Shown here: positions 9,001-15,000 of the stretch, in pieces
How the letters are laid out: each line of letters begins with the position of its first letter
Numbering within the stretch: position 1 is the first letter of the stretch
Assembly: GCF_053078305.1 (NCBI RefSeq)
Contig: NZ_CP166879.1
DNA: 64,000 bases
Strand: one strand, 5' to 3'
Made by a program: the position numbers

Positions 9001-12000
9001 CCAGCCATGATTCCGCCAGTCACAATTACCTGATTTAGCAAGCTGGTGCGGGTTCTTAACCTGAGGAAAACAATACAGGGAATAAGTGAAAAAATAATCA
9101 GAAGAATTGATAATACTATAACACTCAACACCTGCCAGAACTCGTTTATTCCTTCCGGGAATTCCAACGTATGAAGAAATAACTCAAGAGGAATAATATA
9201 TATGCAGGCTGCGTGGGTGAATAGCGTTGACTGTACAATATGCATGGAAAGAAACTTTTTGATCTGCTTCCACTTACCCTCTGTGCTTATCTGTCTATAA
9301 GTAATAGAGCCATTGAGACACAGAGAAAGTATAAAACTGCAAATCCAGATAATGCTTAACTGAAGTAGCACATATTGTTCAATTTCTTTTCCTGCGTTGT
9401 ACATGAGGAAAAAATAACCAAAAAATATCAGTGTTGATAATAGCGAGGTCAGAAGAACGATTTTGATGTTGTTTTCCGTCAGTTCATTCCGGAAATCACT
9501 TTCCCCTGGATAATTGGAAATATAGAATCCTGCCACTAGTGAGGGCATAAATAACGCCATGCAAAATAGGAGTACGCTGATACAAGCAAAGACCATCAGA
9601 TAACTGAACAATGATGAAAAAGAAATACTGTCAAAAAAAAGTCCTGTTTGTCCAATACGCGCAAGATGTGACCATATAAACAATGCTACAATAGAAGTTG
9701 ACGCGATCGGTGTAAGGATTGTTAAAAACCAAGCACATAGTTTTATAAAATGTTTGTTTACTCTGTAATTTTCTATATTTTAGTGTCCATTCAAAGTTTG
9801 ACATATGATCTAGCTAATGACTCCATTTTTGGGCATTGCTTACCAACATACCTCTTATGTGTATTACTGTGAAGGAGAACGATGAATAGCGACTATTCAC
9901 GTGGATCTCCACAACAACCATCAATATTCCAGCCATTATCATTCCCGGTATCCTTACCGGCATTACCTGTAGAATCGGTTATTGTTGTTGCCCTATAACA
10001 CACTTTTGTGGCTATAACGTTTATAGCTATCGACAAAAAACCATATTAATTCTTTTGGAAAAAAGAAAATAAGGTATCCATATAACAACACCAAATATTC
10101 CACTCACTAATAATCTGATATTATCTGAATCCAGCTGTACGTCAAAAAGAATAGCCGGTAATAAAGTAAGATAGAGAGCAATAATCAGTCCTGTTGCATA
10201 ATAAGCGATCATGGCTTTTCGAGTTCCTTTTTTGCGTCTGAAAAACAACCACGTTGCATAAAGGGAAACAATGAATCCACATATCAGCAACACAAATGCC
10301 CCCATAGCGTAATAAGATAAAAAGCCAGTTTCATTGAAATAATTGAATGCAGTTATGGTAAAACTGTAAAGTTCAATAGTACTACCAATAACACCCAAGA
10401 TAAGTCCCAGAGCAGGAAGATATAATAGTCCATTAATTTTACTTAACTCTTCTCTTTCACAGGCATCACACAATCCCGACTCTTTGTTTGCTTCTGACAT
10501 TTTACATTTTATACATTCCATTTTTTATTCCATTATTCATTGCGTTACGATAATGTTTAGTTTTTTAAACATCCCCCACCACATGTATGGGGATTGTTGC
10601 AAATCTCACTTAGGATCTGATGGTGTTTTCTTACGGGAGTTAAATTTATCTATTAAATTAAATACTATTGTAGCTAATGTTATTGCTGTTCCTGCTATAC
10701 AACCAAAAACGATAGCTCTTTTAAACTGATTCACTGGAAAATAAAACCCATCACCTTTAAAAAATAAAAGATTGAAACCGCCCCTCCCAGAAATAGTAAC
10801 ATGACTATAGATGATAAACAGCTATAAAGGAACAATATCACATAACTATATAGTTGTTTCATTTTTTCTTATCCTCTGACGAACCTTTCGGTTTATTGAG
10901 TTATTGGCTCCTTCAGGTAACTCACCTTTGGCAAGTTTATCCAGTCCTGCCTGCTTCTGTTCCGAGGTGAGATTATTGGCATCAGCATACTGATTCCATG
11001 AGGAAACCGCCTGACCATAACTCACCATTCCTGATGGAAGACTGAGCGAGTTATTCTCAACAACAATCCTAACCGCAAAGGTTGGGATTGTTGTTAATCT
11101 CACTCAGGATCTGATGGAGGTTTTTTACGAGAATTAAACTTATCGATCAGATTAAAAACTATCGCTGCTAGTGTTATCGATGTACCTGCTATGCACCCAA
11201 ACACAATAACTCTTATCATTTGGTGGGTCGGGAAAAAAAAGAATCCTTTTGTTAGGTAAATAAATAAAGCTCCTCCCCCCATCAAAAGAAATCCACTGAT
11301 GATACAAAAGAGGCATGCATATATGAACAATACAATGTAAGCAATCATTTCCCCTCCTCCTTCTTCGCGCTAGAAGAGAACTGATTATTACTACTTGCTT
11401 CTTTTATATATCCACCAAGAAATTCACTACCAAAAGATCCTGTCGCATCAAATATAAATCCCGGAAACTCTTTCCCAGTAACTGAGTTTACTATTCCGGG
11501 AGCATATACTCCAAATGCTCCACCCAATCCGGCCCCGGCAGCAGCCCCTCCAATAGAGCCTGTATTTGGACCATCGGTAAAGAATGCACCACCCATCGCA
11601 ATTCCGACGTTTTGTCCGACAGTTCTCCCCGGCGCAAGCATACCCGCAATGCCTGAACTGGCACTGCTTTTCCAGTCCCAGTTTTTGTTTTCATTACCTG
11701 GCTGGCTTAAATCAAACCACTGGTAACTTCCATTGGCTATCTCCGCGACGACTCCACCACTGACCATTTTACCGACCGAAGCAGCAGGCCCCAGATACCA
11801 TGCCCCGGCAATCATTACACCATCCTGATATCCATCCACGATCACTTTCGTGATATTGGTGCTGTCCGGCATATCACCTTTCGCTATCTTATCCAGTCCA
11901 GCCTGTGTTTGTTCCGGTGTCAGATTATTGTCCACCGCGTACTTGTTCCATGATGTAGCCGCAGCAGCATTGCTTTCAAAACCATCACCGAAGCTGAGCG

Positions 12001-15000
12001 CATTATTCTCAACCGTCGTCTTACCTGACTGTGCTCCGGCTACCGCTGAAGCTCCCGAATCTCCCACCAGACCACCGGCCAGGCCGGCAGCAACCGTTGC
12101 CAGTGTCGAGACCGTCTGCTTCTCTGTCCCGCTCAGTTCACTCACCGGCTTACCGTACATCTGTGTGGCTATCATTCCCACCACCTCGCCGGTGGCTGCG
12201 CCTGCGGCACCAGCCAGAGCATTCTTACCCTGTGCCAGAGACAGGGCTGCATTCACTACTGCATGAGCTGCCACACGTCCCGCACCGTCCGGGGTGGTCT
12301 GTTTGATAATTTCAGCAATATACGGTGCTGCACCACCTGCCAGGGCTGCACTCAGATTACCGCCGGCCAGCCCCTGTACTGCTGCCGTTGCGGCCTGTAT
12401 CGCCTGCTGGTATTTGCCTCCCGTTCCAAAACCTGAGGCCGCCATACCGTTATTGTAGGCCCGCTGCGCCACATCCTGTTCCGTGAACGGTTTTCCTGCT
12501 GCCTCAAGCTCCTCACGGGCCTGATTCAGTGCTGCCGGGTCCCGCTTCGCTTTCTCACCAGCTATCTGGCCTTCCGTTCTGGCAATATCTGCCACCTGGT
12601 TACCAATCTCACCAATGAGCTGCGCCTGCTGCAGTCGCTGCTGCTCTTTTTCCCTGTCAAAGATGGGGGACAGCGTCTGGTTTGCATGTGCTGCGTCACG
12701 GTTCAGGTCTGCCACATCCTGTTTCTGGCTCTGCGTATCCCGGATGGTGATATTCCCGGCAGACACAGCCGACTGAGTGGTGCTTTCTGCATGGCCTTCA
12801 TGATTTGCACCAACCAGCAGATTGTTGGCCATATTTCCCGCGAACTGGCCACCGATGCTGCCGCCAGTGCTGATACCCACGCTCTGGTGTTCAACTTTGT
12901 AATCAGCACGATTTTCGATATCACGGAAGCCCAGTGTACCGGTATCCAGCCGGTTTTTATCTGCCGTTGCCGTGGACGCAATCACCGCACCGTTCAGTTG
13001 CGTATGCTGTCCGGTGGTGACATCAAACCCGCCCCTGCCGGCAAAAATCCCCGTCTGCTCCTGCACACTGTCATAGTTACTGTGCATTTTATCCCGGCTG
13101 AGGCTCACACTCGCCGAACCGCTCATGGACCCGAAAGTGAAGCTGCCTCCGGCACTGGCATTCTGCTGCTTACTGTCATAACGGTCACTGTCCTGCTCAC
13201 TGGTCAGTGTCAGATGACGACCGGCATCCACTTTCACCGTTTCACCGCCGGCCTGCACGCCGGTAAGCGTGGTGTCCCGCCCGCTGATAATGGTCAGGCG
13301 GTTTCCCGCATCCACCGTGGTTTCTGTATGGGTGGTACCGTTGCCTTTTTCACTGCCCTTACCCTGGTTTGCGCTGGCTGAAACACTGATACCCCAGCCT
13401 CCGGCCCCCACACCGATACCGACACCCACACTGCCGCCACTGGATGAGTTCTTTCCTTCCAGCTTTGACGTGTTTTCTGCTGATACCAGATTCACGTCAC
13501 GGTTTGCCTGCAGCAGAACGTTGTTCCCTGCCTTTATCTGACTGCCCTGTATCGTCAGGTCACCATCCACGTCCTTCACGCCGGAGCCGGTGGCCTGAAT
13601 ACTGAGGTTATTACCTGCGGTCAGGGCGCTGTTCTTCGCCACCGTCTGCTCTGACTGCTGTTCTGATTTCGAAGACTGGCTGCCGTAAGAGAGGCTGATA
13701 CCCACGGCATTGTTATTCTCTTTCTGGTTGCCCTGTGCTTCTGCCAGTCGTCCGGCCTGCACGGCCTGAGCCCCCGAGAGCGCGGCCTTCACCCCCTGCA
13801 GGGCTTCAAGCCGGCTGTTTCCGGCAGATTTCGCCGCCTGCACGGTCTCCACCGTCGTGTTCAGGGCGCTGCCCACTGTGCCGGACAGGGCAAGCGTCAG
13901 ACCGGAGGTTTTCTGCTCCACCGAATGCGTCTGCACATGCCGGTCTGTGACGGCGCTAATGCTGACCTCCTTACCACTGAGTGCCATGTCCCTGCCGGCA
14001 ATCAGGTCAGCACTGTTGGCGCTCAGCCGGTTACCTGCCTGAAGGGAAACATCACCGTGAACACTCCCCACCGTGCTGCCTTTCTGTGTGCTGTCTGTTG
14101 CGGTGTCCGTGACTTTCAGACTCTGGCTGCCCACACTGAATCCCACACCTCCGGAGCTCATCAGCCCGGATTTTTTCTCCTGTTTCAGGTGTGTTTCACG
14201 GTTGCTTTCTGTCAGCGTGCCGATACTCAGGTCATTTCCGGCAGCCAGGGAGACACGGTTATCCCCGGCCACACTGCTGCCCGTGACGTTCAGATTATGT
14301 CCGGCACTGATACTGACCGTATCCCCGTTCAGTTCACTGCCCGTCATGGTCCGGCGGTCAGTGACATCATGCGTGGTTGTGGTGGTTTTCGATAACATCC
14401 CGCTGCTGCCGGTCACTTTATGGTATTCATCCAGCGAGCGGGTATTCTGTGCACCGGTCAGCGTCACGTCATGACCTGCCATCAGGGCCAGGCCTTTCTG
14501 AGCTGACAGCGATGCCGCCTGTGACGTCATATCCCGTCCGGCGGTCAGCGTGACATCACCGTTACCGGCAAGCGTGCTGCCCGTACTCTGTGTGACGCCC
14601 TGCGACAGACGATTATTTTTATCCCAGATAATATTGTCCTGCGCGGAAGTGGTCACTGTGGAAAGCGTCATATCCCTGCCCGCACTGAGTTGCGTCAGGC
14701 TGTCCTTACCCTGATTCACCACCGTTGCAGCCGTCAGATTCATATCCCGTCCGGCCTGCAGCACCAGTCTTCCCTGGTCGTTCTGCACATACACGCCGGC
14801 CACACTGTCGATACTGGTACGTTCAAAATGGTTCTGTCCGGCGTCGCGCTGTGCCGTACGGGTGGTGGTGGTCAGACTGATATCCCGTCCGGCCATCGCC
14901 AGCAGGCTGTCCGTGGCCTGCAGCAGCCCGCCGGTACTGTTAATATCCGTCCGGGCCGTCAGGCTGACATTTGCTCCCTGAATGGAGCCGGCCTGGTTGT

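What the first reader, a model, noticed from the sequence alone, without database searches (positions are those of the whole stretch)
11100..12013. CdiA-CT is glycine-zipper rich and paired with an 82-aa two-TM immunity protein, suggesting a membrane-targeting toxin
The 218 residues after VENN (12002..12013) are rich in small-residue repeats (GxxxG/AxxxG, e.g. GIAMGGAFF, GGAAAGAGLGGAFGVYAPGI) and lack nuclease-like motifs. The cognate cdiI encodes a small hydrophobic protein. This pattern fits ionophore or pore-forming CDI toxins with membrane-embedded immunity proteins rather than nuclease toxins.
Basis: inference. Interest (0 to 1): 0.55.

Follow-up and report, generated by a model that had tools for sequence, protein, structure and literature searches.

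The report
Known AcrB-dependent CDI ionophore toxin pair

Summary
VENN lies at 12002..12013. It is followed by a 218-residue CdiA-CT (11348..12001, minus strand) and an 82-residue hydrophobic cdiI (11100..11348) that overlaps the cdiA stop codon by 4 nt. The CT is 17% Gly and carries an unbroken run of six Gly at i+4 spacing (G144-G164; P about 0.003 in shuffles).

The interpretation also holds, but it is not new. The window's CdiA is identical to GenBank KFD79096.1. That protein is listed in the S1 Appendix of Halvorsen et al. 2024 (PLoS Genet, PMC11630599) among the "group 3" alpha-helical CDI ionophore toxins, which depend on AcrB. Its search statistics there match those of strain SG17-G18, and the published SG17-G18 cdiI primer matches the first 20 nt of the window's cdiI. 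The paper tested CT(SG17) and CdiI(SG17) for AcrB dependence and cognate-only immunity.

My own checks agree:
- 57% identity to the group 3 reference 94-3024.
- hhalign probability 96% against CT(EC93).
- No nuclease or deaminase match in Pfam, NCBIfam or PDB.
- An all-helical AlphaFold model with 3+5 helices, at low confidence.

Downstream lies a decayed orphan module: a deleted 1473e-type CT and a frameshifted cdiI. Verdict: already known, low interest.

The parts
20843..22582 (-). cdiB, the outer-membrane transporter of the two-partner secretion pair (579-aa ORF)
   Evidence: ORF. The syntenic gene in strain 154 is annotated as a ShlB/FhaC/HecB family protein. NCBIfam gave no hit, and I did not scan it against Pfam.
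20306..20833 (-). cdiC, a lysine acyltransferase of the HlyC family. It marks a class IV cdiBCAI locus.
   Evidence: Pfam HlyC PF02794, E 7.6e-31. RefSeq annotates the syntenic gene as 'toxin-activating lysine-acyltransferase'. Class IV definition is from PMC8510554.
11345..20290 (-). cdiA, 2981 aa, intact. Identical to GenBank KFD79096.1.
   Evidence: K1466-K1467-G1468-K1469 sits within YYYRIRKKGKDK, the class IV acylation site.
11993..12145 (-). PT-VENN pre-toxin domain, which ends in the VENN motif
   Evidence: Pfam PF04829, E 2.4e-19, residues 57-107 of the translation of 11345..12313.
12002..12013 (-). VENN motif. It marks the boundary of the polymorphic CdiA-CT and the processing site.
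11777..12001 (-). Entry domain of the CT (about CT residues 1-75; three predicted helices at 7-24, 29-41 and 50-67/70). It is of the group 3, AcrB-dependent type.
   Evidence: 69% identical to the entry domains of 94-3024 and the 1473e type, and 99% identical to an orphan CT in strain 2012C-4431. It shares the SWNxYAxxNNLTPEQ segment with the AcrB-dependent Ntox25 toxin CdiA2 of EC93 (62.5% over 32 aa, E 8e-6). hhalign aligns it with the CT(EC93) entry domain. Helices come from AlphaFold, with pLDDT 81-91 for residues 11-40.
11348..11776 (-). Ionophore domain of the CT (about CT residues 76-218). Five helices are predicted at 77-99, 110-119, 128-143, 147-175 and 181-205.
   Evidence: AlphaFold secondary structure at low confidence. 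88% identity to the 1473e type across helices 1-3. hhalign to CT(EC93) helices 1-3. The five-helix-bundle description of the family is from PMC11630599.
11510..11572 (-). Glycine zipper: G144-G148-G152-G156-G160-G164, inside predicted helix 4 of the ionophore domain
   Evidence: P about 0.003. Conservation. A helix-4 glycine zipper is the only sequence element shared by the whole family, according to PMC11630599.
11100..11348 (-). cdiI, the 82-aa immunity protein. It has two hydrophobic helices (about 11253..11345 and 11151..11216) and a basic C-terminal tail.
   Evidence: The published SG17-G18 cdiI forward primer matches 11329..11348 exactly and uniquely. 31% identical to CdiI of 94-3024 and 55% to the 1473e-type CdiI.
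11059..11095 (.). 16-nt inverted repeat with a 5-nt loop, between the cdiI stop codon and the orphan VENN codons
   Evidence: No T tract follows, so the terminator scan does not call it. Function is unknown.
10846..11103 (-). Orphan cdiA-CT remnant. It has VENN (11050..11061) plus about 53 codons of a 1473e-type entry domain. An internal deletion of about 455 bp then joins it out of frame to the 3' end of the CT.
   Evidence: alignment to the intact module of strain RM11911, L005.
10606..10862 (-). Orphan cdiI of the 1473e type, now a pseudogene. A 1-nt deletion in a T run splits it into ORFs 10731..10862 and 10606..10734.
   Evidence: The published 1473e cdiI primer matches 10839..10862 exactly.

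Best explanation
The region 11100..12013 encodes the toxin and immunity module of a class IV E. coli contact-dependent growth inhibition locus (cdiB-cdiC-cdiA-cdiI). The 218-residue CdiA-CT belongs to the alpha-helical CDI ionophore family, called 'type 10' and founded by CT(EC93). Within that family it is in group 3, of the SG17-G18 subtype.

The mechanism below is taken from the family literature unless marked otherwise.
1. CdiA on the inhibitor cell binds a neighbouring cell. For class IV effectors the receptor is the LPS core, and binding is helped by CdiC-dependent acylation of Lys1467.
2. The C-terminal region is passed into the target periplasm and cleaved after VENN.
3. The N-terminal entry domain (about residues 1-75) uses the inner-membrane protein AcrB to insert the C-terminal domain into the cytoplasmic membrane.
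4. That domain (about residues 76-205) is a Gly-rich bundle of five helices with a glycine zipper in helix 4. Once inserted, it dissipates the membrane potential.
5. The 82-residue CdiI is a two-helix hairpin in the inner membrane with both ends in the cytoplasm. It binds the ionophore domain within the bilayer and blocks it, protecting only against its cognate toxin.

Shown here: the anatomy, the identity to a protein listed in the paper, homology to group 3 and to CT(EC93), the zipper, the hydrophobic immunity protein, and the absence of any enzyme signature.
Taken from the paper: growth inhibition, AcrB dependence and cognate-only immunity for CT(SG17).
Inferred: depolarisation by this particular subtype, and that the window's CT is residue-for-residue the SG17-G18 CT.
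For: - Exact identity of the 2981-aa CdiA to KFD79096.1.
- KFD79096.1 is listed in the S1 Appendix of PMC11630599 in two places. In the CT(EC93) PSI-BLAST sheet it has E 1e-14, 95% coverage and 19.63% identity, lying after the 'group 3' label and before 'group 4'. In the 94-3024 sheet it has E 2e-56 and 64.43% identity.
- SG17-G18 (HBC0854646.1) has the same length and the same coverage and identity, with E-values the same or within a factor of two (2e-14 against 1e-14 in the EC93 sheet; both 2e-56 in the 94-3024 sheet).
- Published primers for the SG17-G18 cdiI and the 1473e cdiI match the window's cdiI start and orphan cdiI start exactly and uniquely.
- BLASTP of the CT against the group 3 reference 94-3024 gives 57% identity over 200 aa, E 5e-73. 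Against the 1473e type it gives 72%, E 1e-100.
- The CdiI proteins are 31% and 55% identical respectively. This fits the paper's figure of about 30% identity among immunity proteins within a group.
- hhalign of the family alignment against CT(EC93), which I rebuilt from the S2 Appendix, gives probability 96% and E 3.5e-9 over 135 columns.
- The entry domain shares a segment with the AcrB-dependent Ntox25 toxin of EC93 (receptor assignment from Table 2).
- The glycine chain G144-G164 is non-random and conserved.
- CdiI has two hydrophobic helices and a basic tail.
- AlphaFold predicts an all-helical CT with 3+5 helices. pLDDT of the ionophore part rises from about 37 to 55-66 when CdiI is fused on.
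- The paper reports that group 3 toxins, CT(SG17) included, are AcrB-dependent and blocked only by cognate CdiI, and that representatives of each group depolarise targets.
- Locus context: cdiC is HlyC family and the KKGK acylation site sits at residues 1466-1469.
Against: - I did not see the SG17-G18 protein sequence itself. Identity of the window's CT to it rests on matching length, coverage and identity, near-matching E-values, and a 20-nt primer match.
- The paper's text does not say which group 3 members were assayed with DiBAC4(3). Depolarisation by this subtype is therefore by homology, at 57-72% identity to other group 3 toxins.
- AlphaFold confidence is low (mean pLDDT 44.6 alone, 58.5 fused). 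The five-helix bundle is not independently established here, and Foldseek gave no significant hit.
- hhalign to CT(EC93) covers the entry domain and helices 1-3 only, not the zipper helix.
- CdiI shows no BLASTP similarity to CdiI(EC93).
- Nothing here shows that the locus is expressed.
Confidence: 0.93

Rival explanations
1. The CT is an enzymatic toxin (nuclease, deaminase or NAD glycohydrolase), like most E. coli CdiA-CTs, and the Gly-rich sequence is incidental.
For: Most E. coli CDI toxin types are nucleases (Table 2 of PMC11630599). Beyond that base rate there is no positive evidence.
Against: There is no Pfam, NCBIfam or PDB sequence match to any enzyme family. Foldseek finds no significant match, and the weak hits are helical membrane proteins. 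The cognate immunity protein is a very hydrophobic two-helix protein, whereas nuclease immunity proteins are soluble. The protein is listed among the ionophores.
Confidence: 0.01
2. It is membrane-active but of a different structural class. It could be an Ntox25-like beta-barrel ionophore or a colicin-type ten-helix voltage-gated cation channel that inserts without a protein receptor.
For: Ntox25 toxins sit on related class IV CdiA proteins, share part of the entry domain and also depolarise cells. An Ntox25-annotated fragment lies next to homologous ionophore sequence in other strains.
Against: There is no PF15530 (Ntox25) or colicin pore-domain hit in Pfam. The predicted secondary structure is entirely helical, with five helices in about 130 residues, not a beta-barrel or a ten-helix bundle. 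Homology is to CT(EC93) and the group 3 ionophores. Group 3 toxins need AcrB.
Confidence: 0.03
3. The module is intact in sequence but is a silent or decaying relic that contributes nothing to competition in this strain.
For: The orphan module just downstream has decayed. In the closest complete genome, strain 154, cdiA and cdiB are broken into pseudogene fragments. No convincing promoter was examined.
Against: In the window, cdiB, cdiC, cdiA (2981 aa with no stop) and cdiI are all full-length, and cdiA and cdiI are translationally coupled. The same CdiI protein occurs on 430 contigs, which argues for maintenance. This rival concerns activity in this strain, not what the module is.
Confidence: 0.1

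Closest known systems
[quoted passage not shown] 2024, PMC11630599)
   Same: Same CdiA length (2981 aa), and the same coverage and identity in both published search sheets, with E-values the same or within a factor of two. The cdiI 5' end matches the published primer. Same group. The published tests for AcrB dependence and cognate-only immunity apply to it.
   Different: None detected. Residue-level identity could not be checked because the SG17-G18 sequence and its S2 Appendix sheet are not held.
CT(1473e)/CdiI(1473e), another group 3 subtype, seen intact in strain RM11911 and decayed as the window's orphan
   Same: 72% identical CT, rising to 88% across ionophore helices 1-3. 55% identical CdiI, with the second helix and C-terminal tail nearly identical.
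   Different: The entry domain is only 69% identical and helices 4-5 only 65%. The first CdiI helix is divergent. The paper reports no cross-immunity between the SG17 and 1473e pairs.
CT(EC93)/CdiI(EC93), the founding CDI ionophore (group 1)
   Same: Both are post-VENN CTs of about 220 residues. hhalign gives 96% probability over the entry domain plus helices 1-3. Both have a run of Gly at i+4 spacing in helix 4 (EC93 G160-G176; window G144-G164). Both have a small two-helix CdiI and depend on AcrB.
   Different: About 20% sequence identity. The EC93 entry motif PEGQDPARGLL is not conserved. The CdiI proteins show no detectable pairwise similarity. EC93 has a class I CdiA (BamA receptor), whereas this one is class IV with CdiC.
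Ntox25 (PF15530) CDI ionophores, e.g. CdiA(STEC4) and EC93 CdiA2
   Same: They are carried on CdiA, depolarise cells and depend on AcrB. They share the entry-domain segment SWNQYAxDNNLTPEQ.
   Different: The toxin domain is predicted to be a beta-barrel and is unrelated in sequence. The window's CT has no PF15530 hit.
Pore-forming colicins (A, E1, Ia...) and microcin V
   Same: They are inter-bacterial toxins that depolarise the inner membrane. Microcin V also needs an inner-membrane protein (SdaC).
   Different: Colicin pores are ten-helix domains. They insert without a receptor from the periplasm, form voltage-gated cation channels and are diffusible, and their immunity proteins have 3-4 TM helices (that last point is from my own knowledge). 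There is no sequence or profile similarity here.

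Membership tests
CDI alpha-helical ionophore toxins ('type 10', CT(EC93) family; PMC11630599) | The toxin is the polymorphic C-terminal region of a CdiA effector, directly after the PT-VENN domain | tested here: met
   PT-VENN PF04829, E 2.4e-19. VENN is at CdiA residues 2760-2763 and 218 residues follow.
CDI alpha-helical ionophore toxins ('type 10', CT(EC93) family; PMC11630599) | Detectable homology to CT(EC93). The family was delimited by iterative PSI-BLAST from CT(EC93). | tested here: met
   hhalign of the family alignment against CT(EC93): probability 96%, E 3.5e-9, 135 columns. The identical protein KFD79096.1 is in the authors' PSI-BLAST list at E 1e-14.
CDI alpha-helical ionophore toxins ('type 10', CT(EC93) family; PMC11630599) | Glycine-zipper motif (G-x3-G-x3-G) in helix 4 of the ionophore domain, the only sequence element shared by all groups | tested here: met
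   G144-G148-G152-G156-G160-G164 lies within predicted helix 147-175. P about 0.003. G156, G160 and G164 are 92-100% conserved. Register-level equivalence to EC93 G168/172/176 was not established by alignment.
CDI alpha-helical ionophore toxins ('type 10', CT(EC93) family; PMC11630599) | Two alpha-helical domains: an N-terminal entry domain and a C-terminal five-helix bundle able to span the membrane | tested here: inconclusive
   AlphaFold gives only helices, 3 + 5 in the expected order. Mean pLDDT is 44.6 alone and 58.5 fused to CdiI, so the packing is not trustworthy. Foldseek is uninformative.
CDI alpha-helical ionophore toxins ('type 10', CT(EC93) family; PMC11630599) | Cognate CdiI encoded immediately downstream: small (72-100 aa), very hydrophobic, a two-helix hairpin | tested here: met
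   82 aa, with a 4-nt overlap with cdiA. Two hydrophobic segments, mean hydropathy +1.07, basic C-terminal tail, two predicted helices. Cytoplasmic placement of both ends is inferred from the positive-inside rule only.
CDI alpha-helical ionophore toxins ('type 10', CT(EC93) family; PMC11630599) | Dissipates the target-cell membrane potential, and cognate CdiI protects | not testable with these tools
   The paper reports this for representatives of each group, and reports cognate protection for CT(SG17). It is not shown for the window's own sequence here.
Group 3 of the CDI ionophores (AcrB-dependent entry domain) | Entry domain homologous to the group 3 references (94-3024, STEC 2074) and to AcrB-dependent Ntox25 toxins | tested here: met
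   69% identity over residues 1-75 to 94-3024 and 57% over the whole CT. A shared segment with EC93 CdiA2 (Ntox25), 62.5% over 32 aa, E 8e-6. The protein lies in the group 3 block of the S1 Appendix.
Group 3 of the CDI ionophores (AcrB-dependent entry domain) | acrB deletion targets are resistant | not testable with these tools
   Reported for all representative group 3 toxins, CT(SG17) among those constructed.
Ntox25 (PF15530) ionophores | Match to the Ntox25 profile / beta-barrel toxin domain | tested here: not met
   Pfam scan of the last 322 residues returns only PT-VENN. The prediction is all-helical.
Nuclease / deaminase CdiA-CT families | Match to a nuclease or deaminase profile or fold, with a soluble immunity protein | tested here: not met
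   No hits in Pfam, NCBIfam or PDB sequence searches, and no significant Foldseek hit. The immunity protein is a membrane protein.
Class IV CdiA / cdiBCAI loci (PMC8510554) | cdiC encoding an HlyC-type lysyl acyltransferase between cdiB and cdiA | tested here: met
   PF02794, E 7.6e-31, for ORF 20306..20833.
Class IV CdiA / cdiBCAI loci (PMC8510554) | Receptor-binding domain with the acylated Lys1467 in a basic, Tyr-rich segment; binds the LPS core | tested here: met
   K1466, K1467, G1468 and K1469 lie in TYYYRIRKKGKDK at the published numbering. The full receptor-binding domain was not aligned, and LPS binding is not testable here.

The most novel reading that the evidence does not exclude
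The main toxin looks like a natural three-part mosaic.
- Its entry domain is 99% identical to an orphan CT found in other E. coli strains.
- Ionophore helices 1-3 are 88% identical to the 1473e type.
- Helices 4-5, which together with helix 1 the paper predicts to contact CdiI, are the most divergent.

It sits next to a decayed 1473e-type orphan whose cdiI keeps a nearly identical 3' half. The most novel reading still open is that this locus records a recent recombination between the main gene and an orphan array. That event would have created a new toxin-immunity specificity and then disabled the donor module. This would be a natural counterpart of the engineered entry/ionophore hybrids in the 2024 paper.
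Probability: 0.25. Interest if true: 0.2.

Novelty: already known. Interest (0 to 1): 0.1.

Why it matters
It adds little that is new. It does show that a reader working from raw sequence alone can correctly infer a membrane-depolarising CDI toxin from composition plus the nature of the immunity gene.

For annotation it has some use. RefSeq still labels these genes 'hemagglutinin repeat-containing protein', 'adhesin' and 'hypothetical protein', and neither Pfam nor NCBIfam has a model for the family. The published knowledge has therefore not reached the databases. A profile built from an alignment like A1 would annotate at least the 238 database clusters recovered here across Enterobacterales.

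Biologically, the module is one allele in a self/non-self recognition network among E. coli strains.

Tried and rejected
- NCBIfam scans of the CT, CdiI, the orphan ORF, the DUF2569 protein and the 364-aa ORF gave only noise, with E >= 0.01 and scores far below the cutoffs. NCBIfam also found nothing for CdiB or CdiC, so Pfam was used for CdiC.
- My first search of the paper's supplements, using RefSeq WP accessions, peptide strings and the genome accession, found nothing. The link came only after the exact-sequence look-up gave the GenBank accession KFD79096.1.
- AlphaFold on the CT alone gave pLDDT 44.6. A fused CT-linker-CdiI construct raised this to 58.5, which is still too low for fold comparison. 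Foldseek against PDB had a best E-value of 1.5, so I treated it as uninformative rather than as evidence.
- BLASTP of CdiI against CdiI(EC93) gave no alignment. Immunity-protein homology across groups cannot be shown by pairwise comparison.
- I considered group 6 (DtpA/DtpB-dependent) because strain M15, the group 6 reference, matched the CT DNA at 79%. I rejected it because the match is to an orphan CT downstream of M15's main cdiA, not to its group 6 toxin.
- I tried the Ntox25-annotated genes of strain 2012C-4431 as the comparison for the AcrB entry domain. The main CdiA there has a different entry domain, and the 'Ntox25' ORF is a chimera of an Ntox25 fragment and an ionophore domain. I used EC93 CdiA2 instead.
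- I tested the claim of overall GxxxG enrichment. It is not significant once composition is controlled. Only the in-register chain is.

Full report
**What is in the sequence.**
The window is E. coli DNA. Region 10500..12313 is 99.9% identical to the chromosome of E. coli O22:H8 strain 154. On the minus strand the genes run as follows:
- cdiB, 20843..22582.
- A 175-aa HlyC-family acyltransferase, cdiC, at 20306..20833 (Pfam PF02794, E 7.6e-31).
- An uninterrupted 2981-aa cdiA, 11345..20290.
- An 82-aa ORF, 11100..11348.

VENN is encoded at 12002..12013 and is CdiA residues 2760-2763. Exactly 218 residues follow it. The cdiA stop codon and the start of the next gene overlap as ATGA.

**Is the pattern more than chance?**
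The CT is 17% Gly, 12.8% Ala and 9.6% Ser. Once composition is held fixed, the total number of GxxxG pairs is not unusual: 9 against 6.0 +/- 2.0, p = 0.11. Their arrangement is unusual.
- Eight of the nine lie in residues 125-164.
- G144, G148, G152, G156, G160 and G164 form one unbroken i+4 chain.
- A chain that long occurs in 0.26-0.37% of shuffles.

I aligned 72 homologues drawn from the 238 database clusters that matched at E <= 0.001. They come from Escherichia, Salmonella, Enterobacter, Klebsiella, Pantoea, Erwinia, Edwardsiella and others, and are mostly labelled 'adhesin' or 'VENN motif pre-toxin domain-containing protein'. In that alignment G144, G156, G160 and G164 are 92-100% conserved.

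The 82-aa protein has two hydrophobic stretches, at about residues 2-32 and 45-66. Their 19-residue Kyte-Doolittle peaks are 2.74 and 2.36. A basic tail, SRKKPPSDPE, follows.

**No enzyme signature.**
- Pfam finds only PT-VENN in the last 322 residues.
- NCBIfam finds nothing above noise.
- A profile of the family finds no PDB chain at E <= 1.

**Link to the literature.**
A full-text search found Halvorsen et al. 2024 (PLoS Genet 20:e1011494, PMC11630599). That paper starts from CT(EC93) and defines a large family of alpha-helical CDI ionophore toxins in E. coli. The family comprises 864 effectors, 89 unique CTs and six groups defined by entry domain. The paper describes it as follows:
- The only sequence element shared by all groups is a glycine zipper in helix 4.
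- The C-terminal domain is predicted to be a five-helix bundle.
- The immunity proteins are 72-100 residues, very hydrophobic, and form two-helix hairpins with both ends in the cytoplasm.
- Representatives of each group depolarise target cells in a DiBAC4(3) assay, and cognate cdiI protects.
- Group 3 toxins have entry domains related to those of AcrB-dependent Ntox25 toxins.
- Seven group 3 toxins were built and tested, from strains STEC 2074, 88-H13-A, AGR4029, C139, U124, SG17-G18 and 1473e. acrB deletion mutants resist the representative group 3 toxins, and each of the seven is neutralised only by its own CdiI.

**This very protein is in that paper.**
An exact-sequence look-up shows that the window's CdiA is GenBank KFD79096.1. 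That accession appears twice in the paper's S1 Appendix:
- In the CT(EC93) PSI-BLAST sheet, with E 1e-14, 95% coverage and 19.63% identity. It lies after the 'group 3' label and before the 'group 4' label.
- In the '94-3024 search' sheet (a group 3 query), with E 2e-56 and 64.43% identity.

Strain SG17-G18 (HBC0854646.1) has the same length (2981 aa) and the same coverage and identity in both sheets. Its E-value is 2e-14 in the EC93 sheet, against 1e-14 for KFD79096.1, and 2e-56 in the 94-3024 sheet for both.

[quoted passage not shown] This matches window 11329..11348 exactly and uniquely. [quoted passage not shown]

I conclude that the main pair is the SG17-G18 subtype and the orphan is the 1473e subtype. 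I could not view the SG17-G18 sequence itself, because its S2 Appendix sheet was cut when stored.

**Independent checks of membership.**
- The group 3 reference CT from plasmid pO104_H21 of strain 94-3024 (L003) is 57% identical over 200 residues, E 5e-73. Its CdiI is 31% identical. This fits the paper's figure of about 30% identity between immunity proteins within a group.
- I rebuilt CT(EC93) (224 aa) and CdiI(EC93) (79 aa) from the residue tables of the S2 Appendix. hhalign of the 72-sequence alignment against CT(EC93) gives 96% probability and E 3.5e-9. It aligns window residues 3-141 with EC93 residues 7-149, which covers the entry domain and ionophore helices 1-3. The two CdiI proteins show no pairwise similarity.
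- A tblastn search of plasmids with the entry domain hit plasmid pCP127 of EC93. The hit is in CdiA2, whose CT reads VENNSLSDGWNNILPSGTQDYGQAVASWNQYAQDNNLTPEQVQEGMNRIAIGEGPSWG... followed by an Ntox25-type domain. The shared segment is 62.5% identical over 32 residues, E 8e-6. The 2024 paper lists that toxin as an AcrB-dependent Ntox25 ionophore.
- AlphaFold on the CT alone gave an all-helical model with eight helices (3 + 5), at mean pLDDT 44.6.
- A fused CT-linker-CdiI construct gave mean pLDDT 58.5. It kept the same 3 + 5 helices, raised the ionophore region to pLDDT 55-66, and predicted two long helices for CdiI with pLDDT up to 85.
- These models are too weak for fold comparison. Foldseek against PDB gave nothing below E = 1.5. 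They are compatible with the published architecture and show no beta-barrel or enzyme-like fold.

**How it most likely works.**
The locus is class IV: cdiC is present, and CdiA carries K1466-K1467-G1468-K1469 in TYYYRIRKKGKDK. Those are the residue numbers and the sequence context of the CdiC-acylated site described for CdiA(STEC4), which recognises the LPS core.

After receptor binding, the CT is transferred to the target periplasm and released by cleavage after VENN. The entry domain (about residues 1-75) then uses AcrB to assemble the ionophore domain (about residues 76-205) into the inner membrane, where it collapses the membrane potential. CdiI, a membrane hairpin, binds helices 1, 4 and 5 of the ionophore domain and blocks it.

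The anatomy and the homology are shown here. AcrB dependence and cognate immunity for CT(SG17) come from the paper. Depolarisation by this specific subtype is inferred from group membership.

**Surroundings.**
Directly downstream lies a decayed orphan module. I aligned it with the intact 1473e-type module of strain RM11911 (L005).
- The window keeps VENN (11050..11061) and about 53 codons of the entry domain.
- It then lacks about 455 bp and rejoins the last 40 nt or so of the CT out of frame.
- The orphan cdiI has lost one T from a T run. This splits it into ORFs 10731..10862 and 10606..10734.
- The same state is present in five complete genomes.

The main CT is a mosaic:
- Residues 1-75 are 99% identical to an orphan CT in strain 2012C-4431, and also match the orphan in M15.
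- Residues 76-143 are 88% identical to the 1473e type.
- Residues 144-205, which carry helices 4-5 that the paper predicts to contact CdiI (together with helix 1), are only 65%, 52% and 34% identical to the three comparators.

The main and orphan CdiI proteins differ mostly in the first helix. The second helix and the tail are nearly identical.

**Novelty and verdict.**
However, the family, the group, the receptor, the immunity mechanism and this exact protein are already in the literature. What is left is an annotation gap: there is no Pfam or NCBIfam model, and RefSeq names the genes 'adhesin' or 'hypothetical protein'. There is also a small evolutionary note about mosaicism and orphan decay. 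Interest is low.

Noticed in passing
window 10606..11103 (minus strand): Decayed orphan toxin/immunity module of the 1473e subtype. VENN plus about 53 entry-domain codons remain, followed by an internal deletion of about 455 bp. The orphan cdiI is split by a 1-nt deletion in a T run. Five complete E. coli genomes carry the identical state.
   Followed up: yes
window 11348..12001 (minus strand), compared with L004 979..1830, L002 1351..1932 and L005 871..1602: The main CT is a three-part mosaic. The entry domain is 99% identical to an orphan CT in strains 2012C-4431 and M15. Helices 1-3 are 88% identical to the 1473e type. Helices 4-5 are the most divergent part (65%, 52% and 34%). This suggests recombination between main and orphan modules.
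   Followed up: partly
window 11059..11095: A 16-nt inverted repeat (94% complementary, 5-nt loop) lies immediately after the cdiI stop codon. One arm overlaps the codons just before the orphan VENN. No T tract follows, so it is not a canonical terminator. Its role is unknown.
   Followed up: partly
window 15884..15895 (CdiA residues 1466-1469) and 20306..20833: CdiA carries the KKGK site in a Tyr- and basic-rich segment at the published class IV numbering (Lys1467 is the acylated residue), and cdiC is an HlyC-family acyltransferase. The effector is therefore expected to bind the LPS core and to be lipidated.
   Followed up: partly
window 9993..10103 (minus strand): The short ORF MEYLVLLYGYLIFFFPKELIWFFVDSY... 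matches the start of an 'adhesin' ORF in strain 2012C-4431 that runs on into VENN and an orphan ionophore CT. In the window it continues into unrelated sequence, so another orphan module seems to have been lost here.
   Followed up: no
window 10027..10521 and 8589..9683 (minus strand): A DUF2569 membrane protein (164 aa, with a Cys-rich N-terminus) and a 364-aa multi-pass hydrophobic ORF lie just downstream of the cdi array. DUF2569 recurs next to homologous cdi arrays in many E. coli genomes. Neither has a known function or a family match.
   Followed up: no
L004 2601..3122 (strain 2012C-4431): The ORF annotated 'polymorphic toxin type 25 domain-containing protein' is a chimera. An N-terminal Ntox25-like fragment is fused to a 1473e-like alpha-helical ionophore domain. 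This is an example of misleading annotation produced by recombination in orphan arrays.
   Followed up: partly
L001 (strain 154, closest complete genome), locus 12846..23996: In the closest complete genome, cdiA and cdiB are broken into several pseudogene fragments, whereas the window's copies are intact. The locus is evidently decaying in some lineages.
   Followed up: no
window about 1700..7300, by synteny with L001 4070..8729: By synteny with strain 154, the region upstream of the ykgM/ykgO-type ribosomal protein paralogues should carry integrating-conjugative-element genes (TIGR03756/TIGR03757 families, TraG N-terminal domain) and IS66 elements. If so, the cdi locus borders mobile DNA. I did not confirm this on the window itself.
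   Followed up: no
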